From a virus (Duplodnaviria; Caudoviricetes): DNA of 61,521 nucleotides. Within the stretch, counting starts at the first letter, position 1. Every line of letters starts with the position of its first letter. The translations under genes and the position numbers were made by a program. The stretch is from positions 1 through 61,521 of IMG/VR virus record IMGVR_UViG_3300034096_000310; one strand, given 5' to 3'. The notes under the pieces were generated by a model, which did no database searches, was not told the origin of the DNA, and saw nothing but the letters and a program-made list of their open reading frames with translations. Shown here piece by piece: positions 2,194 to 58,024 of this stretch.

Positions 2194-4195
2194 CGGATCT
2201 GTTGAGGACATTCACGGACTCAAGTGTCACCTGCCTCCGGTCGGTTATGTATTAAACGTACAGACCGGGGAGCTGGAGAAGAGGGGCGTGTACGCTAATT
2301 CACCAAAGAAGTCTGATCAGTGTTGGGAATACGTAAAGCCACCTACAGACTACAACAAACTACGAGAGAAAGAGATTCAGCGACAGCTGGAAGATAAAGA
2401 GTTCTTTGATCCAAAGCTTGAGATGTTCAGGCAGCAGGAATGGGATAGGAGATTAAACGGATTCTGGTTTTATAACAATGGTGCACCCACTTATATAACC
2501 GGACTTCACTACTTCTATCTCAACTACTGGACGCTCGATACGGGACTACCTAAGTACAGGGACACAGACAGAAAGTACTTCTACTTTTTGCAGTACTGTA
2601 TAGAGGACCCGGAGTGTTTTGGGATGGTAGAGATTACCAAGCGCCGCCAAGGTAAGACATTCCGTGGTGGTGTGTTTTTGTACGAGTACACGTCTAGGAC
2701 TAGAAATACTAGATCTGGTATTCAATCGAAGACAGGTAATGACGCCAAGGAGGTATTCCGTAAGGCGGTGGTGCAGCCATTTAAAAAGCTGCCACACTTC
2801 TTCCAACCCGTCTACGACCAGAGTAAGGGTTTGACTCCAACATCGGAGTTGCGCTTTTACAATACGGTAGTAAAGGGGCGGAAGGCTAGCCAGATCCTCG
2901 ATGAGGAAGAGCTGGAAAGTATGATCGACTGGAAGCCATCAGAGGCCATCTCTTATGACGGACAGAAGATCCACCGGATGCTGCACGATGAGGTGGGAAA
3001 GACGATGGAAGTGAATGTCTGGAACCGTTTCCTAGTAACTAGGTACTGTAATCTGGACGACGAGGGGCGCATCATCGGTAAGCACCTGTTGACCACTACG
3101 GTGGAAGATATGGAGCAGGGAGGGGCTGAGTTTCAGATGATCTGGAAAAGCTCTGACCACAACAACAAACAAGGGAAGAGAACCGCCTCTGGACTGTATA
3201 GATACTTCTGTCCTGCTGACGAGACGAGGTATTACGACAGGTACGGATACGCTGATAAGGATAAGGCTTTGAATGAGATCCTCGAAGAGAGGAGGCTCCT
3301 TGCAGGTGACGCCCGGGCTCTGAGTTCGGTCATCCGCAAAGAACCTTTAAGCTGGGAGGAGGCGTTCAGAATAGACGGAAGCAAGTGCTTGTACAACCCT
3401 GAGAAGTTAAACGAAAGGTTGGATAGGTTGAGCTGGAAGGAGAACCTGACTACGCGAGGAAACTTTGTATGGCAGGGAGGTGTGCAGGATTCGAGGGTAG
3501 AGTTTGAGCCGGCCAGTAATGGCAGGTGGCAGGTAGTGAAGCTCTTTGATAAAGATGAGGATAGTAACAAGGTCGCCAAGAGAGGTGACTCGTACTATCC
3601 AAACAACACGCTGCAGTTCGTGATGGGTGTCGACCCAGTGGACCACTCCGCCACAGAAGATGGTAGGAGGTCTAATGGTGCCGGCATCGTTCTTCAGAAG
3701 TATAACGCAGCTCGGGGGGATGATATGTACAACTACTCATTTGTAGCTAGGTACCTCTACAGACCAGAGAGCGTGCAGATCTTCTACGAAGACATGATCA
3801 AGATGGCGGTGTACTACGGATGTAGTGTGCTGTTCGAGAACAACAAAATCGGACTGATGCACTACTTCAACGACAGGGGTTACGGTAGCTTCCTAATGTG
3901 GCTTCCTGAAAGGAACCAGCCCGGGATAGCGGCCAGCCCTAAGACACACCAGCAGATCGCCGAGCTGACAGAGGACTATATCAACAATCATATTGAGCGA
4001 GTTTATTTCAAAGATCTCGTCCAAGACTGGTTGGAGTTTGATATGTCCAAGACAACAAGATTTGACATTGCCATGGCAGCTGGTTATGCGCTGATTGCTG
4101 ATCAGGCCAAGGTATTAAAAAAAGATACAAGTCAGGTGCGAGATGTATCTGATTACTTTAAACCCAATAAAATATGGACAAACTGGACGCGGTAG
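2174..4195 (+). CDS. terL: Terminase large subunit (crAss-related type)
   Basis: Walker A-like KRRQGKT, Walker B LHDE, nuclease motifs MGVDPVD and LFENNK, C-terminal FDIAMA. Confidence 0.92.
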   Translation: MYALISDGSVEDIHGLKCHLPPVGYVLNVQTGELEKRGVYANSPKKSDQCWEYVKPPTDYNKLREKEIQRQLEDKEFFDPKLEMFRQQEWDRRLNGFWFYNNGAPTYITGLHYFYLNYWTLDTGLPKYRDTDRKYFYFLQYCIEDPECFGMVEITKRRQGKTFRGGVFLYEYTSRTRNTRSGIQSKTGNDAKEVFRKAVVQPFKKLPHFFQPVYDQSKGLTPTSELRFYNTVVKGRKASQILDEEELESMIDWKPSEAISYDGQKIHRMLHDEVGKTMEVNVWNRFLVTRYCNLDDEGRIIGKHLLTTTVEDMEQGGAEFQMIWKSSDHNNKQGKRTASGLYRYFCPADETRYYDRYGYADKDKALNEILEERRLLAGDARALSSVIRKEPLSWEEAFRIDGSKCLYNPEKLNERLDRLSWKENLTTRGNFVWQGGVQDSRVEFEPASNGRWQVVKLFDKDEDSNKVAKRGDSYYPNNTLQFVMGVDPVDHSATEDGRRSNGAGIVLQKYNAARGDDMYNYSFVARYLYRPESVQIFYEDMIKMAVYYGCSVLFENNKIGLMHYFNDRGYGSFLMWLPERNQPGIAASPKTHQQIAELTEDYINNHIERVYFKDLVQDWLEFDMSKTTRFDIAMAAGYALIADQAKVLKKDTSQVRDVSDYFKPNKIWTNWTR

Positions 4196-6712: not shown

Positions 6713-7732
6713 ATGAGTGAAGACTTAAACTTCAGTAACATTAAAATGAGTGATGTTACTGTTGGCGGTAAACCTCTAGTAGAGGAAACGCCAGCGGCCG
6801 AATCAGGTACTGAAACTCCGACAAATGCGGAACCAGCGCCAGAGGTAGCCAAACAAGAGCCAGCTGTAGAGAACGCTCCAGAGCCAGTATCTGAGCCAGC
6901 TCAAACCCCAGAACCTGTTTCCCAAGAGGAGCCAGCTCGGGGGTATGAATGGAAAGACGACTTTATAAAAGGAGTTGTCGAGTTCTATGAAAAGACAGGT
7001 GACATTACACCATACCTGCAAGCCAAGCTTGTAGACTTCAACGGAATGAGCGACACGGAGGTTATGAGACGTAGTCTTCGTGAGCAGTATCCGGACGTTT
7101 CTGATAAAGCCTTTGATAGGTTATATCAGCAACAAGTAGTCGAAAAGTACAAACTGGATGCGGATCAGTGGGGCGAAGATGATGCAGAGTTGGGCAAAGA
7201 GTTGCTCAAGTCTGAAGCTACCAAGCTCCGCCAGAAGTATCTAGACTGGCAAAAAGGTTTCATGGCTCCCGAACCGGTCGTGAGTCAAGAGGCCGCACAG
7301 GAAGAGGCGCAACTACAAGAAACGCTTCGACAGTTTGAAAGTGATGTGAAGAGTAACAAACTCACAAACCAGATCTTAGGTGACAAGAGAATTGCCATCA
7401 AGATTGGAGATAGTGAGTTTAACTACGAGCTTCCCGATCCAAACTCTATGGTGGACATGACGCTTGACAATAACAAGTTCTTTCAACAATTCGGGTCCGG
7501 TGACGGCCAGTTGGACTATAGTAAATGGTATAAGACCGTTGCCTATAGTCAAAACCCAGAGCAATTTGAAAAGGCTCTGATTAACTACGGCAAGACACTC
7601 GGGCGCGAAGAAGTAACGAAGGAGATCAAAAACCCTTCTAGCAATGCAGTTGGAGATGTTCCAACAGAGGACAGCGGTGACTTTGTTACCGGGCTTTTGA
7701 ATGCGTTTGCTAACAGAGGGGTAAACAAATAA
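6713..7732 (+). CDS. Putative scaffold/head assembly protein
   Basis: Acidic, Pro/Glu-rich N-terminus; lies between portal and capsid genes. Confidence 0.6.
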   Translation: MSEDLNFSNIKMSDVTVGGKPLVEETPAAESGTETPTNAEPAPEVAKQEPAVENAPEPVSEPAQTPEPVSQEEPARGYEWKDDFIKGVVEFYEKTGDITPYLQAKLVDFNGMSDTEVMRRSLREQYPDVSDKAFDRLYQQQVVEKYKLDADQWGEDDAELGKELLKSEATKLRQKYLDWQKGFMAPEPVVSQEAAQEEAQLQETLRQFESDVKSNKLTNQILGDKRIAIKIGDSEFNYELPDPNSMVDMTLDNNKFFQQFGSGDGQLDYSKWYKTVAYSQNPEQFEKALINYGKTLGREEVTKEIKNPSSNAVGDVPTEDSGDFVTGLLNAFANRGVNK

Positions 7733-40607: not shown

Positions 40608-40911
40608 ACTTTTTGTATATCATTTTAGCTTTTACCAATTCCACTATCGTGTCCCATTCAACCTTATGATGGAAGGCGGTCTTGTAAAACTTGTTAGACT
40701 TCCACCTGTCCTGCATATAAAAGATCTCTTGGTCAGGTACTATATCCTCTTCTTTCGCCAGCTCTACCAAGTTCTCCCCGTCCTCTTCCAGACTCCAGAC
40801 CTTCAGATAGCCCCCACGGTTTGGCACATAGTGACCACTATACAGTTCCTGCTTGGATGAACTTGTTATAGTCGACCGGCTGGTGGATGAACTTCGTTTT
40901 GTCCTTGCCAT
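40591..40911 (-). CDS. Hypothetical protein (true start probably downstream of 40911)
   Basis: Fills the gap between helicase and resolvase. Confidence 0.45.
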   Translation of the reverse strand: MARTKRSSSTSRSTITSSSKQELYSGHYVPNRGGYLKVWSLEEDGENLVELAKEEDIVPDQEIFYMQDRWKSNKFYKTAFHHKVEWDTIVELVKAKMIYKKYGNKG

Positions 40912-42553
40912 CGTTTATTGGTTGAGTAGGTATGTATCTTGAATTAGAGATGTCGTAGGTGAAATAGTCTATTGCTTCCTGACCAGAGAAGCGGAACCTG
41001 ATCTTCCAAAAGTGTATCTCCGTCTGCTTGGTCTCCCTGTTTCTATACACCGTGATGCCTACATCGGGGGCGTTATAGTAGTGGGAGCTGTCGCCTACGT
41101 CATACCCAGTCGGCACTTCGTATACAGCCTGCTTGACCTTGGTTAACTTCTTGGGGTGGGCTACTAGCCAGATGTGGATGCCCTGTTCACGGGCAAATGC
41201 TCTGAGATCTCGCATCATGTTGCCTATCTGGTTGTGCCTGTTGTCCCCCGAGCCGGCGATCTGTCGCTCAACTGTACTCATGTTATCGATCACAAGACCC
41301 CTGATCCCATAGCGGCGCACCATCTCTTCTGCCTTCTTCATGATCGCCTCGATAGTACCATCCTCGCTGAGCTTGTAGTACTTGAAGTGCTCGTTCAGAA
41401 ATGGCGTGCCAGACGCAACCTCTTCTTTGGATATGCGTACTGTATTGGGCGCATTGAAGAATGACTTTCCGGTTCTAATTGATATTAGGTCGGTCATAGC
41501 GAAGGTGGCATTGGCTTCCTCAGCAGAGTACAACAGGTACGACCATCCGTGTCTGTCCGCCAGCCTGACCAGCAGATTCTTTAGCCACGTTGTTTTACCG
41601 TGTCCGGGGATGCCGGTGATGAGTGTGACCATACCGGGGTGCCAGACAAAGTGCTCATCCATATTGTCCCAGCCTGTGTCGAATCCCTCTGGGTATCCCT
41701 GTTCCCACAGTCCGATGATGTCGCTCTCGCTGACCACGTCGATCCCATCCACAGGGAATGGCTCTGCGTTGTTGTAACATTCCACAAGCCTTTCCTTTCC
41801 GTGTTTGAGAAGCGTGTCGTTGGCGTCCTTCTCCGGCATGTTAACAATCCAGCAGTTCGACTTACCCAGTCTGCGGGCCAGCTCGTTGCGAAGACCGATG
41901 CCAGCCTCGTCTGTATCCGTTGCCAGATAGATCTTGCGGCCTTCAAGGAATGGCAGCATCTCCTCCAACCACTCAAGCTTTTGGTTACCCTTGCTCGCCC
42001 CGTTCGGTACACTGACAGCAGTCTTGATGCCAGCCTCATAAAACGATAGCGTATCAATCTCGCCTTCTGTAATGATGAGTTCAGTATCAGAGTTATCGCT
42101 TGAAACGTCAATCCCATACAGGCTAAGCATAGCGCCAGAGACAAGCTTAAACCTCTTCTGGCTATCTCTATACTTGATGTTAACCAGTTCGCCATTTAGG
42201 TAGTAATTAAAGTTGATGCATCTTGATTCACCATCACCCATGTATTGAACAGACTCGGTTACCTTATAGCGCAGCAGGGTTTGATTTGTAATCCCCCGAC
42301 CTGCAAACCAGTCTATCACTGGCTGTGATAAAACCTTGTGTTCTTCAACAGGCTTGGTGTATTCTTTCTTAACCTTGACAGTTCCGGACCAACCGCAGTT
42401 GTGGCAATTCCATACTCCTTCCTCGACATTCACGGACAGGCATGGGTCCTGCTTGTGCTTGCGGGAGTCAGAACACTTGGGGCATTTTGTCTTCACGTCC
42501 CCACGCGATCCGGGCCTGATGTTAATGCCATAGCGTTGGAGTTTTTCAAACAT
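40838..42553 (-). CDS. Primase-helicase (T7 gp4/Twinkle-like)
   Basis: CPKC...CHNC zinc finger, TOPRIM EGEID and DTDEAG, Walker A GIPGHGKT, LVAHP. Confidence 0.92.
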   Translation of the reverse strand: MFEKLQRYGINIRPGSRGDVKTKCPKCSDSRKHKQDPCLSVNVEEGVWNCHNCGWSGTVKVKKEYTKPVEEHKVLSQPVIDWFAGRGITNQTLLRYKVTESVQYMGDGESRCINFNYYLNGELVNIKYRDSQKRFKLVSGAMLSLYGIDVSSDNSDTELIITEGEIDTLSFYEAGIKTAVSVPNGASKGNQKLEWLEEMLPFLEGRKIYLATDTDEAGIGLRNELARRLGKSNCWIVNMPEKDANDTLLKHGKERLVECYNNAEPFPVDGIDVVSESDIIGLWEQGYPEGFDTGWDNMDEHFVWHPGMVTLITGIPGHGKTTWLKNLLVRLADRHGWSYLLYSAEEANATFAMTDLISIRTGKSFFNAPNTVRISKEEVASGTPFLNEHFKYYKLSEDGTIEAIMKKAEEMVRRYGIRGLVIDNMSTVERQIAGSGDNRHNQIGNMMRDLRAFAREQGIHIWLVAHPKKLTKVKQAVYEVPTGYDVGDSSHYYNAPDVGITVYRNRETKQTEIHFWKIRFRFSGQEAIDYFTYDISNSRYIPTQPINDGKDKTKFIHQPVDYNKFIQAGTV

Positions 42554-43545: not shown

Positions 43546-43960
43546 ACTGGGTGAGCTTTAAATAAGAATTTTGTCGGTAAGTAAATTTGATTGCGTTGAG
43601 TGTGAGACACAGCTTCATGTAGAACTTCTTAACCGGATCGTCTATCATGTAGACAGTACCTTCTTTTACCCTGCGATTCGCCTCCCTAAGGTTAGCACGG
43701 AACTGCTGGATCTTGTTTCGGTGCGAGTCATAGGACATGTCTAGGTAGTCTTGCACAGAGGATTGATCGAAGCCGTGCATGTCTGCGATGCCGACGAAGA
43801 TCATACGCCCTAGGTCCTTGGCGCCTTCATAAGTCTCAGATGTCTGTAGGATTTTTGCAGAAGACCGGTCCCAAATAAATTGTGGTTTCATACAGCCTTC
43901 TAATTGATTTAGTCTTACCATTATTGATTGTTTAGTTTTACTAGAAAATTTTTTCTCCAA
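43538..43960 (-). CDS. Hypothetical protein, possible HTH
   Basis: ORF within the operon. Confidence 0.5.
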   Translation of the reverse strand: MEKKFSSKTKQSIMVRLNQLEGCMKPQFIWDRSSAKILQTSETYEGAKDLGRMIFVGIADMHGFDQSSVQDYLDMSYDSHRNKIQQFRANLREANRRVKEGTVYMIDDPVKKFYMKLCLTLNAIKFTYRQNSYLKLTQYD

Positions 43961-44922
43961 GTGATTTTGCCATCGGGCAGCTCCATTACCTGAGCACCGC
44001 CGTGCTGCTCCATATACTGCTTGAGCTTGTTGCCGTAGAGAAGCTTTTCACTCTCCGCCAGCTTGATTGTATTATTGTATAATACATACTGGGCGGCCCA
44101 TTCGGATTGTTCGCTACCGCCGTGGATAGTGATATCGTTCTCCCGGTCTTTATGCTTGACAGAGATGAAGGCGTTGAAGTCTTCTGAGTTATCAGCGTCT
44201 GGTTCGAACTGTGCGGCAATACCGTAGATCTCTTCTTTTTCTGAGGCGCCTGCTTCCATGATGGCCTCCCGAGCCGACAGCACACGCATCTGATGCTCTG
44301 TTGCTTTTTGTAGTATCGCCTGTTGAATATCAGAGTCTGCTTCAAATGTTTTGACTAGCATGTCCTGCCCATCTATCTGCATACAGATCTCTGCGTACTT
44401 GTGGCCAGTGACCAGCATGTAGTGATTCATCTGAGCGATATAGTTCGGGGGAACGCCATCGATATAAGAGTCGACGGTCATCTTGCCTACGTTCTTAATC
44501 TCTAGGATTCCTTTCTTCTTACCGAACACAGGGTGGTGCGTGATCTCACCATCTAAGTTGGCGAACAGCATAGCGTAGTCTGGGTTCTCGATGATGGCTT
44601 TAACCTTTCTGAACTTGCGCACCTTTGTTTTAGTGGCAATGTTTTTGATAAAGTTTTGCTCGCCATCCCAATACTGCCACATGTTTGCAATGGTGTCTTC
44701 AAGCATCTTGCCGAACGCCATCTGCCTGTTCATCTTTGTAGGGAGTAGGTCAACACCGATAGACTGATAGAATAGATTAAGTGGTGACTTCCACTTGTTC
44801 CATCCAAGCAATGTGCCTGCATCTGAACCACCAACCATTCCCCGAGAAACAAACGACTGGCGTAATTTTTGCCAGTCGCTTTCTGATAGCTTATCGGTTT
44901 TGGTTTTAATTAGCTTTTGCAT
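43921..44922 (-). CDS. YqaJ/lambda-type recombination exonuclease
   Basis: GGSDA, G..LE, ANLDG, LEIK, Y.AQ..HY. Confidence 0.9.
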   Translation of the reverse strand: MQKLIKTKTDKLSESDWQKLRQSFVSRGMVGGSDAGTLLGWNKWKSPLNLFYQSIGVDLLPTKMNRQMAFGKMLEDTIANMWQYWDGEQNFIKNIATKTKVRKFRKVKAIIENPDYAMLFANLDGEITHHPVFGKKKGILEIKNVGKMTVDSYIDGVPPNYIAQMNHYMLVTGHKYAEICMQIDGQDMLVKTFEADSDIQQAILQKATEHQMRVLSAREAIMEAGASEKEEIYGIAAQFEPDADNSEDFNAFISVKHKDRENDITIHGGSEQSEWAAQYVLYNNTIKLAESEKLLYGNKLKQYMEQHGGAQVMELPDGKITWRKNFLVKLNNQ

Positions 44923-46464: not shown

Positions 46465-47778
46465 TCACGCTTTCGTAGTGTCTTCATTGTAGACTTTATT
46501 ATAGTATTGCTTAACCTCTGTCTTGTAGGTCTTGTCAACCCATCCTATGTATCTGTTGATGGCGTCTGACTTATGTCCGGTGATAAACCTTACGTGGTCT
46601 ATCGATACGCCGTTAGAGATTAGCATAGTGACCGCCGTCTTACGAAGCATGTGGGGGTGGACGATCTCGTAGTACTTCTGTGTGACCGCTACCTTGCGAC
46701 CGATGATATCAGCCCGCTTGTACGTAACCAGCTCGTGCATCTCAGGATACTGGGCGAAAAATGACTTGAACCCTTTCCTTATGCACTGCATGGGGTGGTA
46801 TGGTAGCGGCGTGTAGATGTTGCCGTGGTGGTTGATGTTGTAGGCGTAACGCTCAGACAGTACACGAGGCAAGGGTGTGGTCGTCTCCGTGCCGGTCTTG
46901 AGATTCTCCTTTGTTAAGAACGCCTCCCCATCCACAAAAACAATATCATCCTTTGAAAGAGTCAGCGCATCCGATATCCTCAGAGACGTCACCAGCATCG
47001 TTGCAGAGATCTCCCACAGAAACCTCATCTCCTGATCCATCTTGTCGTACTTCTTATGGCTGTCCATAACAAGCGCCTTGGCAAACTCTGTTGGCAGGGT
47101 GATGATGGGTGTCTCGTAACCCGCTACCCTGTTGGGTTTGGGCAGGGTGAGGAACATATCCCGCTCCCAGTAGGCGAGTATAACCATGATGATCGTCATC
47201 ACATCGGCCCGGGTGTTAATCTTAAAGTCATTGTCTATCATGTAAGCAACGAACTTGTCGAAGTGCTTGGACATGTTGTCTGCGATCTCTCTTTTTTGTC
47301 CCAGCTCTTTGCCGGATAGATCGTAGTCCCTGAGGTCGATGTCTTTGTTCTTTGCCACGAACCGCCAGTAGGTGGTGGTAGCAAACTGATAGGTCCTAAT
47401 CGAGGAGATGCGGAACTTGTTCTTCGCTTTGGTAGTGATGTCACCATCCGTAATGCCATCGATATACCTGTCACATAGCTGGGCGAACTTGAACGTAGGT
47501 TCGTCATCCGGTACTTGGAACATCGGTTGGGAATAATATTTCTTTACGATCTCTAGCGATCCGTGCTTGGCGAACAGGTCGCTGATGATTGCCCGCTGGC
47601 GGTCCAGATCCGCGTTCATCTCTGGTACGTCAGGGGTGTCTCCCTTGAATCGTTCCCGGGTCGGGAGGAACTTAACGTGCTTCGGTACACGGATGCCGGT
47701 AGTAATACGGATCATCTCGCTCTTGTGGCAAACCCTCGAATAGATGGTGTTATCCCGCTGATAAAAAGTAATCTTCAT
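46465..47778 (-). CDS. int: Tyrosine integrase/recombinase
   Basis: Catalytic residues in LRISD, KT, HMLRKT, GHK, RYI; N-terminal arm-binding-like region (RITTGIRV). Confidence 0.9.
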   Translation of the reverse strand: MKITFYQRDNTIYSRVCHKSEMIRITTGIRVPKHVKFLPTRERFKGDTPDVPEMNADLDRQRAIISDLFAKHGSLEIVKKYYSQPMFQVPDDEPTFKFAQLCDRYIDGITDGDITTKAKNKFRISSIRTYQFATTTYWRFVAKNKDIDLRDYDLSGKELGQKREIADNMSKHFDKFVAYMIDNDFKINTRADVMTIIMVILAYWERDMFLTLPKPNRVAGYETPIITLPTEFAKALVMDSHKKYDKMDQEMRFLWEISATMLVTSLRISDALTLSKDDIVFVDGEAFLTKENLKTGTETTTPLPRVLSERYAYNINHHGNIYTPLPYHPMQCIRKGFKSFFAQYPEMHELVTYKRADIIGRKVAVTQKYYEIVHPHMLRKTAVTMLISNGVSIDHVRFITGHKSDAINRYIGWVDKTYKTEVKQYYNKVYNEDTTKA

Positions 47779-48085: not shown

Positions 48086-48295
48086 TTATTTCTGCACACC
48101 GTATGTTTCGTTGTAGTATTGATTACCGTATTCAATATCAATATGTTGATATCCATCTTTTCTCCCATCAATCCAAGCTTTACTTATCTGCTCCTTCTCC
48201 ATTTGTTTGGCTTTTTCTTTCCATTCACTAGGTGCTGCATATCCTGCAAAAAGAAATCTTTCATACAACCATTCTACTGCTGTTTGTTGTGCCAT
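48086..48295 (-). CDS. Small MAQQTAVEWL-family protein, copy 2
   Basis: Paralog of 48482-48724; AT-rich. Confidence 0.65.
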   Translation of the reverse strand: MAQQTAVEWLYERFLFAGYAAPSEWKEKAKQMEKEQISKAWIDGRKDGYQHIDIEYGNQYYNETYGVQK

Positions 48296-48481
48296 AATTT
48301 TTAATTTATATCCGTTATCAATAGGTCCTAAAGCAAATGGGTATGGTGTTCCATCTTTCATAGTTTATTTGTTCGGGAAAGTGGTATAGGTTAAATAATG
48401 GTTGGACTTATTATTAGGCTTTAACCACGTACAATCATTAATGATTGGTAGCCGTTCCATTATTTAATAATTTATTTTGTT

Positions 48482-48724
48482 TTAGTTGTTGGGGGAAGTA
48501 GTGTCATTACTTCCCTGACTTCCGTATGTTTCGTTGTAGTATTGTTCTGGAGTTTTATATCCTTTTATAGATAAATAATTCTTAAGACATTCATTTGCAA
48601 ATTTTATCATTTGTTCTTTCTCCATTGCTTTGGCTTGTTCTATCACCCTCTTCCATTGATTATGTGTTTTGGAATTATCTGCAATTTCATTTAACAACCA
48701 TTCTACTGCTGTTTGTTGTGCCAT
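48482..48724 (-). CDS. Small MAQQTAVEWL-family protein, copy 1
   Basis: Shares MAQQTAVEWL, AK.MEKEQ and QYYNETYG with copy 2. Confidence 0.65.
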   Translation of the reverse strand: MAQQTAVEWLLNEIADNSKTHNQWKRVIEQAKAMEKEQMIKFANECLKNYLSIKGYKTPEQYYNETYGSQGSNDTTSPNN

Positions 48725-48725
48725 A

Positions 48726-49370
48726 TTATTTGTTTAGTATTTCTTCTATATCGTAGTAGTAACAATCTCCGTTAGCGCTCACCCACCTGTCACTCTCCGA
48801 CTCCACGCACTCAAGCGATGTGTCTACCTTGAACTCTTTGGGATCAACTGGGAACTTGTTCGTTATGAAGTTAGAGTCCTTCCAATATATCCGATTGTTG
48901 GGTTGGCAAAGTAGGTACCCATCATCCGCCAGTAGAACGTGACCGCACTTATAATCCGTCGGCTCGTCTGAGTACGAATTGTTAAACCAATCCACGGTGA
49001 ATAGATAGGTGGCCCAAACAGAAGTCTTGTCCTTGAGGATAACCTTGCACCTCTTCTCCGCTAGATACATGTACTCAATGGCGCTTACGTTCTCACTAAA
49101 GCAATCCCATAGTTGCTTGAAGTCACTGGGGATGTCGGCGGTCGGTTCGTGGTAGAATAGTTCCGAGATAGGGACCCTACTTCTGAGCATCCCGTAGTCC
49201 GTCATAATGTGGAACGTCAGGATCTTACCACTGATGCTTTGAATAGCGAAGGCATAGCAGTTGTCATACACTTCTTTATCTGCCTCGTTCTTTGTCAGCC
49301 AGCTCCGCCTAACCTTTAGCTTTAGGTTAGGGATGTTTACGTTCAGTACGTTTGACTCGTGTGTTATCAT
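48726..49370 (-). CDS. Hypothetical phage protein (214 aa)
   Basis: Long ORF with QLWDCFS and QPNNRI motifs; function not recognised. Confidence 0.6.
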   Translation of the reverse strand: MITHESNVLNVNIPNLKLKVRRSWLTKNEADKEVYDNCYAFAIQSISGKILTFHIMTDYGMLRSRVPISELFYHEPTADIPSDFKQLWDCFSENVSAIEYMYLAEKRCKVILKDKTSVWATYLFTVDWFNNSYSDEPTDYKCGHVLLADDGYLLCQPNNRIYWKDSNFITNKFPVDPKEFKVDTSLECVESESDRWVSANGDCYYYDIEEILNK

Positions 49371-53825: not shown

Positions 53826-54317
53826 TTAGAATTCCCAGTCATAGTGATACTCTGCTCTACCAAAGAGGATATTCACCTTCGGGTATCTCCTTTTCACCTT
53901 GGTGAATCCTTTAACGAATCTGAGGTCGTTATTGTCATCGTAGAGTCCCAGTTCACTACAACGAATCCATAGGTCGGTCATATGCTTGAACTGATTCGAG
54001 AATTCGGGCTCAAACACGATGTCCTCAATCACCTCTCTCCATGCGCCGTTGCGGTATAGGAGAGTGCGCTTGTATCCATCGGGATTCGGAGTCAGTTCCC
54101 AGTCTTGGTGGCCCATACCTTCTGCATTGGGCTTGGCCTTGTGGTTCATCTCACGAATAACACACTGCTTACCATCGGCGGATACCTCCAACACCTCAGC
54201 AGGGTGGCGGTCTGAATACGATAGGAGAGTAGCACCTTTGCCTACCTCTGGGGTAGACGAATTGTTGCCCATAAGGTAGTTGGTGAAGCTACCTTCGAGT
54301 CTTCTAGTTTGTCTCAT
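53826..54317 (-). CDS. Early hypothetical protein
   Basis: PEVG.GAT...YSDR and G....Y.D..F motifs; bounded by E2 and E3. Confidence 0.65.
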   Translation of the reverse strand: MRQTRRLEGSFTNYLMGNNSSTPEVGKGATLLSYSDRHPAEVLEVSADGKQCVIREMNHKAKPNAEGMGHQDWELTPNPDGYKRTLLYRNGAWREVIEDIVFEPEFSNQFKHMTDLWIRCSELGLYDDNNDLRFVKGFTKVKRRYPKVNILFGRAEYHYDWEF

Positions 54318-54323
54318 GGTATA

Positions 54324-54379
54324 GGGGTTTGATTCGTAACTGGGAGGGGAGTCGAACCCCTCCTGAGACCATCCAGTTA
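54324..54379 (-). repeat. Intergenic tRNA-like element E2
   Basis: TAACTGG-ATGGTCTCA-GGAGGGG-TTCGACT-CCCCTCC-CAGTTA; the stem begins with the upstream stop codon. Confidence 0.8.
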
Positions 54380-55138
54380 TCCGCAGACGAACTCTGCGAC
54401 TGAGAACTTGGCATCACCCTCAACGATATCCTTCAGCCAGTTCTTCTCCTTGCCACTCATGAGGAGGGTAAACCCAAGCCGCTCCTCAGTTTCTACGTAC
54501 CGCTTGTACAACTGGGGGTTGTGCTTTGCGGCCACCTTGATATCGCTCTTATTGCTCATGATGCAGAACACGCAAGAGAGGCGGCTCATGCCGAGGTCGT
54601 AGGCATAGTGCCTCTTCTGACCTACTGACTCAATCTCAGCCCACACCTCCTTTACACTCCAGTCGAAGATGGGTAGCCAGTCGTACCACTCCCGACCCGC
54701 CTTGCTATTGCGCTCGTTGATGCGGAAGGGGATTTGCTTGGCGCGAGCGGATGACTCTTCGGAGCGGATACCCATGCAGTTCACGATGAGGGTCTTGCCT
54801 CTCTCCTTGCACCAGTTGCGGATAAACTTCTCAATCGGTTGGCGCTTGAGGTCACTGGTGCACTGGCGGTAACTGGGGGAGGGGAACATGCCGCGGTGCT
54901 CCACCATCTCGAAGAAGGTCTTGCCCGCACGAACGAGGTGCGCCTCTATGCCCAGTGAATTCTCTTGTACGTGCTCCCAACATCCCTCCCAGTCAACTTC
55001 GGGGAGGTCTGCATGGACGATGACCAGTTGGTCGTGGGGTACTACTTTGCTGAGGAATATCTTCATGGCTTGGCTATCCTTTCCACCTGAGTCGTTGATA
55101 AAAAAGATTGCGCCTCTGTCGATTAGTTGCTGAATCAT
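54377..55138 (-). CDS. PAPS reductase-family (PP-loop) protein
   Basis: SGGKDS, R.CT..LK..P, GIR.EES.ARA, PI.DW, Y.LG.SRLSC.FC. Confidence 0.85.
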   Translation of the reverse strand: MIQQLIDRGAIFFINDSGGKDSQAMKIFLSKVVPHDQLVIVHADLPEVDWEGCWEHVQENSLGIEAHLVRAGKTFFEMVEHRGMFPSPSYRQCTSDLKRQPIEKFIRNWCKERGKTLIVNCMGIRSEESSARAKQIPFRINERNSKAGREWYDWLPIFDWSVKEVWAEIESVGQKRHYAYDLGMSRLSCVFCIMSNKSDIKVAAKHNPQLYKRYVETEERLGFTLLMSGKEKNWLKDIVEGDAKFSVAEFVCG

Positions 55139-55144
55139 GGTATT

Positions 55145-55207
55145 GGGGTTTGGATGAGGAACTGGGTGTCATTCGATGACTTGCCTAAAGCGGCCCAGTT
55201 CGGGGGA
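55145..55207 (-). repeat. Intergenic tRNA-like element E1
   Basis: GAACTGGG...TAGG..GTC-ATCGAAT-GAC-A-CCCAGTTC-CTCA. Confidence 0.75.
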
Positions 55208-55209
55208 AA

Positions 55210-55293
55210 TTATCTACAAATTTGGTCTTGTATCTGACCCACCACATACCCTATCACCAATAGGGCAAGCAGTAACTGGATAACCTTTCTCAT
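55210..55293 (-). CDS. 27-aa membrane peptide MRKVIQLLLALLVIGYVVGQIQDQICR
   Basis: ATGA-coupled to the upstream ORF; stop lies just before E1. Confidence 0.5.
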   Translation of the reverse strand: MRKVIQLLLALLVIGYVVGQIQDQICR

Positions 55294-55484
55294 AGGGGTA
55301 GTAGGTTTGCTTGTTTACAAAGGCGCTCCCACTTAAGGTCACGCAAGATTTGCTTTGAATCTCCGCCCAGTTCCACGAGGATTTGCTTTACTCGGGTATG
55401 GGTAGAGATTGTTTTTTCGGTACGACGGATAACTTGTCCATCTGCCTTGGCAGTAAAGAGTGGGGATTTGATTCGCTTACGCAT
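55290..55484 (-). CDS. Early basic protein (MRKRIK...)
   Basis: Start overlaps the end of 55477-55602. Confidence 0.55.
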   Translation of the reverse strand: MRKRIKSPLFTAKADGQVIRRTEKTISTHTRVKQILVELGGDSKQILRDLKWERLCKQANLLPL

Positions 55485-55602
55485 AAGAAGGATTTTGAAG
55501 GGTGATAGAAAGGGTGTCAAATGTCACGATTTCCCATCCCATGGATAGGAGGTCAGCGGCAATCTGCTGACCCTTTAGGGTGAGGAGGTTTACGTTTATC
55601 AT
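55477..55602 (-). CDS. First early ORF, 41 aa (MINVNLLTLKG...)
   Basis: Read directly; AAACACC-ATG leader like other array genes. Confidence 0.55.
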   Translation of the reverse strand: MINVNLLTLKGQQIAADLLSMGWEIVTFDTLSITLQNPSYA

Positions 55603-55608
55603 GGTGTT

Positions 55609-55666
55609 TGGGTTTCGGAGGTTACTGCCCCCATCGTCAGTAGTGCGAATATTAGCACTAGACCCA
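55609..55666 (-). ncRNA. Type III hammerhead ribozyme
   Basis: UGGGUC / UAGUGC-UAAUAUUC-GCACUA / CUGACGA-U / GGGGG-CAGUAA-CCUCC / GAAA-CCCA. Confidence 0.88.
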
Positions 55667-56185
55667 TTTACTTATCGGGTAGTCGGGGGTGATAAATCGA
55701 CCCTTAACATCTGCCCATGCAAGTCAGTCCTTTCGGTTTGCTGACTCCAACACCCTGACTCGGAACTACCGAGGTTTGGCGCGACCTTGCGAGAACACTG
55801 GGAGCAGGTACGATACCGCCAGTGTGCCTGATGTTTATGTGCCGAGGAAGGCATCCTCGAGTCTCATCCCACTCTTCGTGGTGGCCACAACGTCTTACGA
55901 CGGAAGGCTCATATCGAGACCATCGCTATGCATTAATCGTGGTTTGGTGTCCGTCCGTCCATCGTACTCACCTAGTCGGGTGGATGGGTGGGAGGTGCGT
56001 TGCCCTAACACGAAACCTGAAAAGAACTATAGTGCTTTGCGGAATCGCTTACTCTCTACACCTCTTCCGACATTACCTTTCGGGATTGTTTATCAGTTCC
56101 ATTTAGCCTATTGCACTAGGGCAGGCGCACCATTACTTCAGAGCGGTAGTAAGCAAAACCTCAAAGAACTTCGTCCCGAAAGACA
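55661..56185 (-). ncRNA. Putative large structured non-coding RNA (~520 nt)
   Basis: Lies between a consensus promoter and the hammerhead cut site; many nested helices and GNRA loops; no credible ORF. Confidence 0.6.
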
Positions 56186-56188
56186 AGG

Positions 56189-56221
56189 CAAAACTAACGG
56201 ATAGGGATAACCGAATCCAAA
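56189..56221 (-). promoter_or_regulatory. Bacteroidota housekeeping-type promoter (early, leftward)
   Basis: TTTG (56221-56218), 21-nt spacer, TAGTTTTG (56196-56189), A/T-rich upstream. Confidence 0.8.
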
Positions 56222-56346
56222 TATTTTTGAAACTTTTTTTAAAAAATACGTATGTATACTTAGGCCGAGTGGCCAAAATCAATGAGTTATGAAAAATGTT
56301 AAATATTGTTAAGGGTTAACCATTAGTGGCCCAGTTCGGGGGCATC

Positions 56347-56670
56347 CTATAGCCGCTTATTGACATAGTAATTCCGTAAGTAAGAGAGATACTCCCTTCC
56401 TCTAGGAGATAGAGAGTAACGAATACCCTCTCGGACAAGCAATCCCAGTTGACAAAGATGCTTAAGGTTATTCCACGCATTGTTAGGCTTAACCCGACCA
56501 ATAGAATACTTAGCCAAATACTCACACACCCCTGCACACGTACACACACCCAAGACACGAACACCAACGAGTAAGCGCAAATCCAAGGGAGCAAGACGAG
56601 GGATACCCATCCGCTTCGCGATGCGATACTCCGCACCATCAGACATCAAATAGAATTTCTCAAGTTTCAT
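56347..56670 (-). CDS. Winged-helix (MarR-like) DNA-binding protein
   Basis: LK.L.QLGLLVR....YSLS.RGREYL wing motif. Confidence 0.6.
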   Translation of the reverse strand: MKLEKFYLMSDGAEYRIAKRMGIPRLAPLDLRLLVGVRVLGVCTCAGVCEYLAKYSIGRVKPNNAWNNLKHLCQLGLLVREGIRYSLSPRGREYLSYLRNYYVNKRL

Positions 56671-57100
56671 TGCTGGTCGACGGAGGGGAAAGGGGAGGGG
56701 GGATTATTTCGCTTTTCAGTACACACACCCACATTTTCCCACCTGACCTCCATCCGCTTTTTGTTTTATCGTTTATCGTTTCGCTTTTTCTCCCCACATC
56801 TGCACGATTTGCACACGTGTGCGTGTTGAGTGTCAGCATATTGCGTACTCCAGATGCTAATCGGTACTTAGCTACGAGGGGGCAAAATCGATTTCGGAAG
56901 GCCGAAAAACGCACCCACCCAGTCGCGGATTCGCGGTTCGCGCACGCATGCCCACCCACCCATTTATATATATAACCCCCACCCTTCACCCACATATTCC
57001 ACCCAAATATTCCCACTGGTGATACTCACGGCTTTCTACAAATGTAAACTGAGCAACTATCTATTTTATTGTGTTACTCACAGATGTTGGTAACTGGCTC

Positions 57101-57131
57101 TTTGAATTAGGTTATGGGGTCTTTATTTTTG
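57101..57131 (+). promoter_or_regulatory. Bacteroidota housekeeping-type promoter (rightward)
   Basis: TTTG (57101-57104), 19-nt spacer, TATTTTTG (57124-57131). Confidence 0.7.
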
Positions 57132-57134
57132 GCG

Positions 57135-57400
57135 CTATCCACCTTTCAGGAATCCGGCTCGGGTGGATCTAGAACGCGCAAGAGTGGGACAGCAGACGAT
57201 GGCGCAGCCCCGATGCAAAGGGAGGAGGGGTATGTCTGCAGGCTGGCACTTCAGTCTTAAAGTAGCTCCCAGACCGATCGGCGGTGTGTCCAGATCGGGA
57301 CGATAGATGCGGGCGTCCGAAGGGGCTCAGGCAAGTATCGGTTGCAGATCGGGGGACATAGTCATGCTCTCGATTCTGCAAGCATCCTCAAAGGCTAGGC
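57135..57400 (+). ncRNA. Putative structured RNA/leader
   Basis: GC-rich non-coding stretch with at least six helices right after the promoter. Confidence 0.5.
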
Positions 57401-57457
57401 AAGTATGTATACCTGTTTTTAGAGTATTAGTACAGGGTGGAGTCTAATTTGCAGATT

Positions 57458-57613
57458 ATGGAAATGATAAAAAGAAAGGACGGGTCTTATTCTCGCAGGG
57501 GTCTGTGGGATAATATCCGGGCCAATGCCGGTTCGGGGAAGAAGCCCACGAAGGCTATGTTAAAGCAAGAAGCTAAAATCAAAAGGAATGCCACTAAAAA
57601 AAGCAAAGGGTAA
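57458..57613 (+). CDS. Small basic protein (51 aa, GLWDNIRA motif)
   Basis: Read directly; K/R rich. Confidence 0.65.
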   Translation: MEMIKRKDGSYSRRGLWDNIRANAGSGKKPTKAMLKQEAKIKRNATKKSKG

Positions 57614-57761
57614 GTCTGACTACAACAAGGTAGTCTCTGCCAACATCCGTGAACTCATGGCGGATAACAAGAAGAAGGGTAAGGAGAAGGGTGCTGGTGG
57701 TAAGGCTAGGTCTAGGAAGCAGATACTGGCAATTGCGATCAGCTCGGCAAAGGGCAAATGA
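57588..57761 (+). CDS. Small basic protein (57 aa, MPLKK...SANIRELM...KQILAIA)
   Basis: Read directly; ATGA-coupled to the HNH gene. Confidence 0.65.
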   Translation: MPLKKAKGKSDYNKVVSANIRELMADNKKKGKEKGAGGKARSRKQILAIAISSAKGK

Positions 57762-58024
57762 GAAAGCACACCAAGGTATACGTAGATTATTTCGGTTGGG
57801 CGGACTTCTATCCCTGTGAGGTCTGTGGGGCTAAGGCGGTGGACATCCATCACATCGAAGCTCGGGGGATGGGTGGTAGTAAAAAGTCTGACCACATCGA
57901 GAACCTAATGGCTCTTTGCAGATCCTGCCATCTGGAGTACGGCGACAAGCGCCAGCACATAGAATTCCTTAAAACACGGCACCAGCATAATGTTGATAAT
58001 CATGTTGGTAAAAACTATCTATAA
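57758..58024 (+). CDS. HNH endonuclease
   Basis: CEVC, DIHHI, NLMALCRSCH. Confidence 0.85.
   Translation: MRKHTKVYVDYFGWADFYPCEVCGAKAVDIHHIEARGMGGSKKSDHIENLMALCRSCHLEYGDKRQHIEFLKTRHQHNVDNHVGKNYL

What the first reader, a model, noticed from the sequence alone, without database searches (positions are those of the whole stretch)
55609..55666. Type III hammerhead ribozyme just upstream of the first early gene
Seen (minus strand): UGGGUC, stem I UAGUGC/GCACUA, core CUGACGA, one extra U, stem II GGGGG/CCUCC, GAAA, CCCA closing stem III. Loop I begins with U and loop II ends with A. Established: this matches the hammerhead core; an extra nucleotide after A9 is tolerated in natural hammerheads, and the loop U/A contact is typical of type III. 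The predicted cut is between 55661 and 55660. The ATG at 55602 follows 6 nt after stem III, and the ribozyme's AAACCC doubles as the leader motif of the array genes. Inference: it takes the place of a tRNA-like element at the first junction, separating the upstream ncRNA from the mRNA and leaving a 5'-OH end. This independently supports the idea that the elements are RNA-cutting signals.
Basis: partly seen in the sequence, partly recalled or inferred. Interest (0 to 1): 0.85.

Follow-up and report, generated by a model that had tools for sequence, protein, structure and literature searches.

The report
Phage hammerhead ribozyme ending a ncRNA
A small self-cutting RNA (a hammerhead ribozyme) lies between a long structured non-coding RNA and the first protein gene of a lake-water phage operon, and related phages carry a different hammerhead or a twister ribozyme at the same spot, so the cut itself seems to be what is selected.

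Summary
Minus strand 55666-55609 carries every hammerhead core letter and three helices, with one extra U after A9. It is the only such motif in the window. Shuffled windows gave 0 of 3000 hits at the observed helix lengths. Rfam does not detect it.

Comparative evidence supports it. All 10 records that hold the conserved upstream non-coding RNA have a self-cleaving ribozyme motif directly after it:
- 3 records have this form.
- 6 have a canonical type III hammerhead with different, covarying stems (Rfam 31-39 bits where searched).
- 1 has a type-P1 twister (55 bits, E 3e-10).

A covariance model built only from the sister hammerheads ranks 55668-55605 first in the window, at 21.8 bits against 13.5 for the next hit.

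Contigs from lake metatranscriptomes cover about 56173-55663. Two of them stop 2-4 nt from the predicted cut, and none crosses it. This is only a hint.

The most likely role is co-transcriptional self-cleavage that frees a ~510-nt structured ncRNA and leaves the operon mRNA with a 5'-OH end. The element is a new member of a known kind. The context is the interesting part.

The parts
55609..55666 (-). Whole type III hammerhead (form A, with one extra U after A9)
   Evidence: Sequence. MFE fold is the three-way junction. Only descriptor hit in the window. Top hit of sister-locus model R1 at 21.8 bits.
55661..55666 (-). Stem III 5' strand UGGGU plus C17. The predicted cut is 3' of C55661, between 55661 and 55660. 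These 6 nt would stay on the upstream RNA.
   Evidence: The position of the cut follows from the hammerhead numbering (established knowledge). RNA contigs end at 55665 and 55663.
55641..55660 (-). Stem I hairpin (6 bp) with the 8-nt loop 1
   Evidence: Three of its pairs differ on both sides from the sister hammerheads.
55633..55640 (-). Core C3-A9 (CUGACGA, 55640-55634) and the inserted U (55633)
   Evidence: In the R1 alignment the U is placed as an insertion.
55617..55632 (-). Stem II hairpin (5 bp, one G-U) with the 6-nt loop 2
   Evidence: Stem II pairs covary among the six sequences.
55609..55616 (-). G12 A13 A14 plus the stem III 3' strand (A15.1 CCCA)
55661..56173 (-). Upstream non-coding RNA. 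The extent is taken from the RNA-library contigs; the 5' end is approximate.
   Evidence: Contig cover spans 55663-56173 in 4 of 4 runs, with none in 56175-56400. No conserved ORF, and 1-nt and 28-nt indels between relatives.
55677..56012 (-). Conserved structured core of the ncRNA
   Evidence: 80-86% identity to six other records. Consensus fold has 83 pairs, 21 with compensatory change. No Rfam family.
55477..55608 (-). 6-nt A/C leader (55608-55603) and the first ORF (41 aa, ATG at 55602)
   Evidence: The ORF is conserved at 50% identity, 75% positives, in L044.

Best explanation
This is a genuine self-cleaving type III hammerhead on the minus-strand transcript. That transcript starts about 510 nt upstream and runs into a phage operon holding small ORFs, a PAPS-reductase-like gene, an integrase, and recombination and replication genes.

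As RNA polymerase passes 55609 the three helices form and the RNA cuts itself 3' of C55661.
- The upstream product is a ~510-nt structured non-coding RNA. It keeps only 6 ribozyme bases and ends in a 2',3'-cyclic phosphate.
- The downstream product is the operon mRNA. It starts with a 5'-OH and keeps the folded ribozyme body, followed by a 6-nt A/C leader and the ATG.

The ribozyme travels with the ncRNA rather than with any particular downstream gene. Both classes found at this site, the type III hammerhead and the P1 twister, cut near their own 5' end. I therefore think the main selected function is to give the ncRNA a defined, exonuclease-resistant 3' end without a terminator. Uncoupling and insulating the mRNA would be a second effect.

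Shown: the motif, its conservation, the covariation, the class swapping, and RNA-library cover of the ncRNA.
Inferred: cleavage itself, the end chemistry, and which product benefits.
For: **Motif.** All core letters and three helices are present. The MFE fold is the hammerhead junction. It is the only hit in the window, and 0 of 3000 shuffles match at the observed helix lengths.

**Linkage to the ncRNA.** Ten distinct records hold the conserved ncRNA. They are the window, the 46,146-nt contig (L002/L043/L163), the 57,088-nt contig (L003/L045), the 60,217-nt contig (L004/L044/L099), and L164 to L169. In 10 of 10 a ribozyme motif starts within a few bases of the ncRNA's end.
- 3 records have form A.
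- 6 have form B, without the extra U and with other stems.
- 1 has a type-P1 twister, L166:11998-11936, at 55 bits and E 3.1e-10.

**Specificity of the descriptor.** It gave no hit anywhere else in 169 loci totalling 1,452,479 bases.

**Rfam on form B.** Hammerhead_3 scores L164 at 39.4 bits, L165 at 33.2, L167 at 31.8 and L003 at 31.4.

**Sister-locus model.** Model R1 was built from 5 form-B sequences only. Run with filters off over the whole window, it ranks 55668-55605 first at 21.8 bits; the next hit scores 13.5. Over 936,895 bases from 100 sources that hit is still first, and the best hit in another locus scores 14.7.

**Covariation.** On the structure-aware alignment A6 (6 sequences, 16 pairs), 7 pairs change on both sides. 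95.8% of cells are paired, against 26-37% when partners are slid. None of 500 shuffles reach the observed values.

**Downstream gene varies.** It is a 41-aa ORF in the window and in L165/L169, the PAPS-reductase gene in L003, and a small hydrophobic ORF in L044. L166 has a different ORF again.

**No terminator.** No terminator-like site lies between the ncRNA and the ORF.

**RNA libraries.** 4 of 4 lake metatranscriptome runs have contigs on about 55663-56173, at depth 3-20. All four have none on 55611-55657 or on 56175-56400. Of the 16 laid pieces, 0 cross the cut. Two pieces end at 55665 (X15) and 55663 (X16) without loose ends. DNA runs hold 0.88-1.00 of the sampled words of 55400-56100, against 0.41-0.68 for the five RNA runs that hold a substantial share (X15-X19); a sixth RNA run, X20, holds 0.11.

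**Precedents.**
- Hammerheads flank genes in prophages, and the HF1/HF2 hammerhead lies 13 nt before the first early ORF with a mapped 5' end within 3 nt of the cut (passages of PMC3088659).
- HDV-like theta ribozymes have their cut site at the 3' end of phage tRNAs (passages of PMC10879173).
Against: - No Rfam hammerhead model scores this element at any threshold tried. The identical copy in L168 also gets no hit at E<=5.
- The extra base after A9 lowered the trans-cleavage rate moderately in the one natural case I could read about (PMC1636495 passage). Activity may therefore be reduced.
- Form A is known only as three identical copies, so there is no covariation within the form.
- The covariation count rests on 6 sequences. 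Five of them trained the model that made the alignment.
- The RNA evidence comes from assembled contigs at low depth. Contigs show neither strand nor true ends.
- Two of the four runs have contigs that stop earlier, at 55711 and 55747.
- The first 91 nt of the predicted downstream fragment (55660-55570) have no cover at all.
- The function of the ncRNA is unknown, so it could be only a long leader.
- Cleavage itself was not and cannot be tested here.
Confidence: 0.62

Rival explanations
1. The cleavage is the same, but it is selected for the mRNA rather than the ncRNA. The hammerhead acts as a natural insulator in the manner of the synthetic RiboJ element (recalled, not looked up). It removes a long structured leader and leaves a 5'-OH end protected by the folded ribozyme. 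Dissociation of the 5-bp stem III then frees the A/C-rich leader next to the ATG for ribosome loading. On this view the upstream RNA is a by-product or a separate matter.
For: - The stem III 3' strand ends 6 nt before the ATG.
- In every form-B record and after the L166 twister, an A/C-rich leader and an ATG follow within about 10-25 nt.
- A/C-rich leaders containing AAACC also follow the tRNA-like elements in the same operon. By my count 6 of 39 listed minus-strand starts have AAACC within 30 nt, against 4.4% of background 30-nt stretches.
- The HF1/HF2 precedent is of this kind (PMC3088659 passages).
- Reviews suggest processing of polycistronic transcripts as a role (PMC6765202 passage).
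Against: - The downstream gene changes between relatives while the ncRNA-ribozyme junction stays fixed.
- A ribozyme meant to give a clean mRNA 5' end would more naturally be type I, which cuts near its 3' end. Here both classes leave almost the whole ribozyme on the mRNA.
- The RNA libraries show the ncRNA at several-fold higher contig depth than the downstream region. Contig depth is a poor measure, however.
- The two readings are not exclusive.
Confidence: 0.25
2. It is a decayed hammerhead that no longer cleaves at a useful rate. The inserted U after A9 and the G-U pair in stem II would mark a relic of a form-B-like ancestor, kept only as a structured spacer.
For: - No Rfam hit.
- The insertion lies in the catalytic core, and the CChMVd insertion lowers the rate.
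- Only identical copies of form A are known.
Against: - All 11 conserved core letters, the A15.1-U16.1 pair, the G10.1-C11.1 pair and the GUC site are intact.
- Stems I, II and III are longer than in form B, and all pairs are intact.
- An unrelated phage contig, L042, carries a type I hammerhead with the same U insertion before a GGGGG stem II and perfect stems I and III. That contig also has an Rfam-detected RAGATH-1/type I hammerhead.
- Natural hammerheads with a base between 9 and 10.1 exist.
- The RNA contigs that match form A exactly are the ones that stop at 55665 and 55663.
Confidence: 0.07
3. It is a chance look-alike, or a structured element that does not cut, such as a protein-binding or attenuator hairpin pair.
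For: - About 3e-4 chance hits per window of comparable total pairing means a very large scan will meet some.
- Rfam is silent.
Against: - The site is homologous to Rfam-scored hammerheads and to a twister in relatives.
- The core letters are conserved while 7 of 16 pairs covary.
- The R1 hit is the best in 937 kb.
- There is no U-tract or terminator-like site.
Confidence: 0.03

Closest known systems
Type III hammerhead ribozymes (Rfam RF00008), and hammerheads of prophages and phages as surveyed by Perreault et al. 2011 (PMC3088659, passages read)
   Same: Same core letters, the same three-helix junction with stem III open, a GUC cleavage site, and an intergenic position on the coding strand of a phage operon. 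The sister elements at the same locus score 31-39 bits with RF00008.
   Different: There is one extra U between A9 and G10.1. RF00008 gives no hit at all, and even the sisters stay below its 48.5-bit gathering score. There is only one copy, which does not flank a gene on both sides.
HHphage of haloviruses HF1/HF2 (described in PMC3088659, passages read)
   Same: It is a hammerhead 13 nt upstream of the start codon of the first ORF of an early polycistronic transcript. The mapped 5' end lies within 3 nt of the cut. Here the distance from the ribozyme to the ATG is 6 nt.
   Different: The host domain differs (archaeal virus). That variant needs high salt or Mg. No conserved upstream ncRNA is described there.
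Hammerheads with a base inserted between positions 9 and 10.1: CChMVd(+) A10 (PMC1636495 passage; the original De la Pena and Flores 2001 paper was not seen) and Penelope-like-element hammerheads (PMC4209133 passage)
   Same: The insertion is at the same core position, and G10.1-C11.1 is kept.
   Different: Those are viroid or eukaryotic retroelement ribozymes, and the inserted base in CChMVd is A. Here it is U in a DNA phage. The same U is seen in a type I hammerhead of another phage contig (L042).
HDV-like theta ribozymes next to phage tRNAs (PMC10879173, passages read)
   Same: A small self-cleaving ribozyme sits immediately 3' of a phage non-coding RNA, with its cut site at that RNA's 3' end. 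It is proposed to replace host 3'-end processing. The hosts are mostly Bacteroidota, and the nearest isolated relatives of this phage's terminase also infect Bacteroidota.
   Different: The ribozyme class differs (hammerhead or twister, not HDV-like). The upstream RNA is a ~510-nt RNA of no known family, not a tRNA.
Type-P1 twister ribozyme (Rfam RF03160)
   Same: It occupies the identical position after the ncRNA in relative L166. It also cuts close to its own 5' end (position of the twister cut is recalled).
   Different: The fold and sequence are unrelated, and it is not present in the window.

Membership tests
Hammerhead ribozyme class, type III | Core C3 U4 G5 A6 N7 G8 A9 | tested here: met
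   CUGACGA at 55640-55634 on the minus strand. The descriptor requires it.
Hammerhead ribozyme class, type III | Core G12 A13 A14 followed by the A15.1-U16.1 pair | tested here: met
   GAAA at 55616-55613. A55613 pairs with U55662 in the MFE fold.
Hammerhead ribozyme class, type III | Cleavage triplet N-U-H (H is not G) 5' of stem I | tested here: met
   GUC at 55663-55661.
Hammerhead ribozyme class, type III | Three helices around the core, with stems I and II closed by loops and stem III open | tested here: met
   The MFE structure has 6, 5 and 5 bp. 7 of 16 pairs change compensatorily against the sister elements.
Hammerhead ribozyme class, type III | G10.1-C11.1 pair closing stem II next to A9 | tested here: met
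   The G55632-C55617 pair is present, but one U (55633) lies between A9 and G10.1. The same kind of insertion occurs in natural hammerheads and in the L042 type I hammerhead.
Hammerhead ribozyme class, type III | Loop 1 - loop 2 tertiary contact (5' U of loop 1, 3' A of loop 2) | tested here: inconclusive
   The letters are present: loop 1 starts with U55654 and loop 2 ends with A55622. This matches the motif in the PMC2632901 abstract. The contact itself cannot be tested here.
Hammerhead ribozyme class, type III | Site-specific self-cleavage giving a 2',3'-cyclic phosphate and a 5'-OH | not testable with these tools
   There is only a hint. RNA-library contigs end at 55665 and 55663, and none of 16 pieces crosses the site.
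Rfam RF00008 Hammerhead_3 (the curated model) | Score at or above the gathering score of 48.5 bits | tested here: not met
   No hit at gathering score, at E<=10 or at E<=1. The sister form-B elements score 31.4-39.4 bits, also below gathering. This is a property of the model, not a defining feature of the ribozyme class.
Rfam RF03160 twister-P1 (for the element in L166, not in the window) | Score at or above the gathering score of 67.2 bits | tested here: inconclusive
   55.0 bits, E 3.1e-10, full-length match 1-68 of 68. This is below gathering but far above chance.

The most novel reading that the evidence does not exclude
The hammerhead is one interchangeable version of a dedicated 3'-end-making cassette for a new class of ~500-nt structured phage RNA. 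The other versions are the form-B hammerhead and the P1 twister. The RNA is made from the leader of the operon it precedes and accumulates far above the neighbouring genes in lake metatranscriptomes.

The same operon is punctuated by six tRNA-like acceptor/T-arm elements before A/C-rich leaders. The whole transcript would then be parsed by RNA-structure signals: a ribozyme at the first junction and host tRNA-processing enzymes at the others.

This would assign a concrete biological job to phage hammerhead and twister ribozymes. It would also point to a leader-derived regulatory RNA, loosely like the processed immunity RNAs of P4 and P1 (recalled).
Probability: 0.4. Interest if true: 0.8.

Novelty: new member of a known kind. 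Interest (0 to 1): 0.6.

Why it matters
The biological role of most bacterial and phage self-cleaving ribozymes is still open (PMC6765202 passage). This locus makes the question directly testable.

- Three different ribozymes occupy one fixed junction after one conserved, structured RNA that is present in RNA libraries, so the cut itself appears to be the selected feature.
- Its two products are defined: a ~510-nt ncRNA and the operon mRNA.
- A core variant with a U inserted after A9 escapes all current Rfam hammerhead models. It recurs in an unrelated phage contig, so surveys based on those models undercount phage hammerheads.

The ribozyme itself is not a new kind of element.

Tried and rejected
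**Rfam.** Searches of the window at four settings gave no hammerhead and no family for the ncRNA. The rspL hit (17.2 bits, E 6.6) and the HIV-1_SL4 hit (11.6 bits, E 4.3) lie on the plus strand, and I treat them as chance. RF00008 run alone on the record gave nothing.

**tRNA search.** ARAGORN found no tRNA or tmRNA in the window.

**Phage records.** blastn of 54000-58000 against phage records gave only two weak hits inside the PAPS-reductase gene.

**MAFFT alignment of form A with form B.** Alignment A2 put the core out of register and was not used. The model-guided alignment A6 replaced it.

**The 14-nt ncRNA word.** In IMG/VR it gave 118 or more stretches. blastn showed only the known relatives to be real. 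I used the rest as unrelated background for the descriptor and for model R1.

**Prophage and host search.** Two scans of genome contigs with ncRNA patterns found nothing. No prophage copy and no direct host assignment came out of it.

**Host.** A Bacteroidota host is only suggested. The terminase's nearest isolated relatives, at 32% identity or less, are mostly Flavobacterium and Cellulophaga phages. Most start codons lack Shine-Dalgarno-like leaders. A TTTG-containing box upstream resembles the Bacteroidota -7 element (the consensus is recalled).

**Antisense idea.** I tested whether the ncRNA pairs with the downstream operon RNA. The longest perfect complement is 12 nt, and 64 of 200 shuffled ncRNAs reach 12 or more. 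Rejected.

**Terminator idea.** I tested whether an intrinsic terminator defines the ncRNA's 3' end. No terminator-like site lies between 56350 and 55400 on the minus strand.

**L005.** It encodes an 87%-identical PAPS reductase but has a different structured upstream region and no hammerhead by my descriptor. It was not counted among the ncRNA holders.

**RNA parts without cover.** The stretches 55570-55662 and 56175-56400 have no contig cover. I report them only as absence of contigs, not as proof of absence of RNA.

**Literature.** Searches for this ncRNA, or for a hammerhead/twister swap at an ncRNA 3' end, returned nothing describing it. They covered only the open-access library. Supplementary files were not consulted, and the supplements of PMC3088659 and PMC10879173 could list related loci.

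Full report
**What is at the site**

Read on the minus strand, 55666-55609 spells out a complete hammerhead:
- a 5-bp stem III (UGGGU with ACCCA)
- C17 at 55661
- a 6-bp stem I with an 8-nt loop
- CUGACGA
- one extra U (55633)
- a 5-bp stem II (GGGGG with CCUCC, one G-U) with a 6-nt loop
- GAAA

Six bases later comes the ATG of a 41-aa ORF, at 55602. The unconstrained minimum-energy fold of 55670-55605 is exactly this junction: -19.4 kcal/mol, z = -2.54, and 3 of 200 shuffles fold as well.

**Chance**

I wrote a type III descriptor. It requires the core letters, the A15.1-U16.1 pair and H17, allows 0-1 inserted base after A9, and sets minimum helix lengths. In the window it finds this site and no other on either strand.

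In dinucleotide-preserving shuffles of the window:
- 5 of 300 had a hit at 4/3/3 bp, and none at 5/4/4 or 6/5/5.
- In 3000 further shuffles there were 52 hits at 4/3/3, 3 at 5/4/4 and 0 at 6/5/5. One hit had 16 or more pairs in all.

That is about 3e-4 per window, which is not decisive for a scan of very many windows.

The proposed Rfam check is negative at every setting. Sequence statistics alone therefore left the matter open.

**Relatives**

The window is an IMG/VR virus record, 92% complete. PHROGs annotation gives:
- a terminase at 2174-4195 and virion genes on the plus strand
- on the minus strand, a PAPS-reductase-like gene (54377-55138), an integrase (46465-47778), a RecE-like exonuclease (43921-44922) and a primase/helicase (40838-42553)

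I found relatives in three ways: through the PAPS reductase, through a winged-helix-like ORF upstream, and through DNA patterns from the non-coding stretch.

Ten distinct records carry a conserved non-coding stretch homologous to window 56012-55677, at 78-86% identity or identical. In all ten a self-cleaving ribozyme motif begins within a few bases of its end.
- Three records have the window's element letter for letter: the window, the 46,146-nt contig and L168.
- Six have a different type III hammerhead, which I call form B: the 57,088-nt contig (L003), the 60,217-nt contig (L044), L164, L165, L167 and L169. Form B has no extra U, an 8-bp stem I with a 3-nt loop, a 4-bp stem II and a 3-4-bp stem III.
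- One more distant record, L166, has no hammerhead. It has a type-P1 twister at 11998-11936, scoring 55.0 bits with E 3.1e-10.

Rfam's Hammerhead_3 scores form B at 31.4 bits (L003) and at 39.4, 33.2 and 31.8 bits (L164, L165, L167). L044 and L169 were not put to Rfam. The identical form-A copy in L168 gets nothing at E<=5 in that same call. Because the model scores form B at this site and not form A with its inserted U, I read the miss as a limit of the model rather than a sign that the site is empty; this is an inference.

The descriptor gave no hit anywhere else in 169 loci totalling 1,452,479 bases. Most of those loci are unrelated viral DNA fetched by a chance 14-mer.

**Independent model and covariation**

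I built covariance model R1 from the five distinct form-B sequences only (A5).
- Run with filters off over the whole window, its best hit is 55668-55605 on the minus strand. The hit is full length, scores 21.8 bits with a rough E of 4e-4, and places the U as an insertion. The next hit scores 13.5 bits.
- Over 936,895 bases from 100 sources that hit is still first, and the best hit in any other locus scores 14.7 bits.

On the model-guided alignment A6 (6 sequences, 16 pairs):
- 7 pairs change on both sides: 3 in stem I, 3 in stem II and 1 in stem III.
- 95.8% of cells are paired, against 26-37% when the partners are slid.
- None of 500 shuffles reach the observed values.

There are two caveats. 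The sample is only six sequences, and five of them trained the model.

**The inserted U**

A base between A9 and G10.1 occurs in the CChMVd(+) hammerhead, where it lowers the trans-cleavage rate moderately (passage of PMC1636495). It is also conserved in the hammerheads of Penelope-like elements (passage of PMC4209133).

I found a further case by pattern search. L042:2400-2350 is a type I hammerhead with the same CUGAUGA-U-GGGGG arrangement and perfect stems I and III. Its MFE fold is the junction, at -23.9 kcal/mol. Rfam misses this one too, although it finds a RAGATH-1/type I hammerhead elsewhere on that contig.

Loop 1 begins with U and loop 2 ends with A, as in the loop-loop motif of the PMC2632901 abstract. 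I also see possible loop-loop pairing in both forms, but that rests only on reading the letters.

**The upstream RNA**

Between the winged-helix-like ORF (56347-56670) and the hammerhead there is no conserved ORF. Relatives differ by 1-nt indels and a 28-nt indel.

The consensus fold of seven sequences has 83 pairs, 21 of them with compensatory change. No Rfam family matches.

The 5' third is mosaic. The window and L165/L169 share one version, and L003, L044, L164 and L167 share another.

**RNA libraries**

Of 24 runs listed for 55400-56100, 20 hold part of the stretch, and 6 of those are lake metatranscriptomes. I laid four of them on 55000-56400 as assembled contigs.
- All four cover about 55663-56173, at summed depths of 3-20.
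- All four have no contig on 56175-56400 or on 55611-55657.
- None of the 16 pieces crosses 55661/55660.
- Two contigs that match the window without a mismatch end at 55665 (X15) and 55663 (X16) with no loose end. In the other two runs the last contig stops at 55711 and 55747.
- One low-depth contig covers 55300-55569.

The silent flanks argue against DNA carry-over. The contig ends are 2-4 nt short of the predicted 3' end. Contigs show neither strand nor true ends, so this is a hint and not proof. No terminator-like site lies in between.

**How it most likely works**

Transcription starts upstream of about 56173. The promoter is not established. A TTTGG box at 56220-56216 is conserved in the relatives and resembles the Bacteroidota -7 element, whose consensus I recall from memory.

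The ncRNA folds, the hammerhead forms and the RNA cuts itself after C55661.
- The ncRNA keeps six ribozyme bases and a cyclic phosphate.
- The mRNA keeps the ribozyme body with a 5'-OH.
- Once the short stem III falls apart, the leader next to the ATG is single-stranded.

The downstream gene differs among relatives. It is a 41-aa ORF in the window and in L165/L169, conserved at 50% identity in L044. It is the PAPS-reductase gene in L003, a small hydrophobic ORF in L044 and another ORF in L166. The ncRNA-ribozyme junction is constant. Both ribozyme classes found here cut close to their own 5' end; the position of the twister cut is recalled. For these reasons I favour 3'-end formation of the ncRNA as the primary role, with insulation of the mRNA as a compatible second role.

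The closest functional precedent is the HDV-like theta ribozyme placed at the 3' end of phage tRNAs (PMC10879173). The closest positional precedent is the HF1/HF2 hammerhead, 13 nt before the first early ORF (PMC3088659).

The same operon does contain tRNA-like elements. Each has a 7-8-bp closing stem, a small hairpin and a T-arm-like hairpin, and is followed by an A/C-rich leader and an ATG. Their homologue in L004 gives a T-arm match to the tmRNA model.

In L003 the hammerhead directly precedes the PAPS-reductase gene, which in the window follows such an element. That makes the two kinds of element positionally equivalent. It does not show that the tRNA-like elements are cut. 'Early' expression is likewise not shown.

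**Verdict**

This is a real hammerhead of a core variant that Rfam misses, so it is a new member of a known kind. The context raises the interest:
- three ribozymes are interchangeable at the 3' end of a new, conserved, structured RNA that is present in RNA libraries
- the same operon is also punctuated by tRNA-like elements

Noticed in passing
window 55661-56173 (-), conserved core 55677-56012: A ~510-nt structured non-coding RNA of no Rfam family lies directly upstream of the hammerhead. Its consensus fold has 83 pairs, 21 with compensatory change, over 7 sequences. RNA-library contigs cover it in 4 of 4 lake metatranscriptomes while the flanks are silent. Its function is unknown, and it has no significant complementarity to the downstream operon.
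   Followed up: partly
window minus strand, about 55205-55141, 54380-54320, 53348-53285, 53103-53036, 52391-52325, 51990-51926: Six intergenic tRNA-like elements. Each starts right after a stop codon with a C-run followed by GAAC. Each has a 7-8-bp closing stem, a short hairpin and a T-arm-like hairpin; two have a UUCGACU loop. Each is followed by an A/C-rich leader and an ATG. ARAGORN and Rfam call none of them tRNA. The homologue in L004 matches the T-arm of the tmRNA model.
   Followed up: partly
L166:11936-11998 (-): A type-P1 twister ribozyme (55 bits, E 3.1e-10, below gathering 67.2) stands where the relatives have a hammerhead, 24 nt before the next ATG. The same locus has a tRNA at 7237-7312.
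   Followed up: yes
L042:2350-2400 (-) and L042:4131-4214 (-): An unrelated 19.9-kb phage contig carries a type I hammerhead with the same U inserted after A9, which Rfam misses. It also carries a RAGATH-1/type I hammerhead that Rfam finds at 34.2 and 26.7 bits. Hammerheads with this insertion may be under-counted in phages.
   Followed up: partly
window 56012-56222 (-) compared with L003, L044, L164, L167: The 5' third of the ncRNA is mosaic. Two unrelated versions are joined to the same core at about 56012. RNA contigs identical to the window's core carry the other version as a loose end at 56012.
   Followed up: partly
L005:300-665 (+): A relative with an 87%-identical PAPS reductase has a different GC-rich, apparently structured non-coding stretch upstream of its first small ORF. 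There is no hammerhead by my descriptor and no Rfam hit at E<=1.
   Followed up: no
window 48086-48740: Two neighbouring small minus-strand ORFs (48086-48361 and 48482-48724) share direct repeats at a spacing of 423-429 nt. One repeat is an exact 23-mer, which suggests a tandem gene duplication.
   Followed up: no
window 56347-56670 (-): A 107-aa ORF just upstream of the ncRNA promoter region is conserved at 50% identity in L044. It has no PHROGs family and no RNA-contig cover. By eye it looks like a winged-helix DNA-binding protein, which I did not test. The 46-kb contig, identical from 56012 downward, differs in this part.
   Followed up: no
window 55000-55140: One low-depth RNA contig (X18, depth 2.3) ends at 55140, 2 nt before the PAPS-reductase ATG and just after the tRNA-like element and leader. 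A single contig carries no weight, but it is worth checking with raw reads.
   Followed up: no
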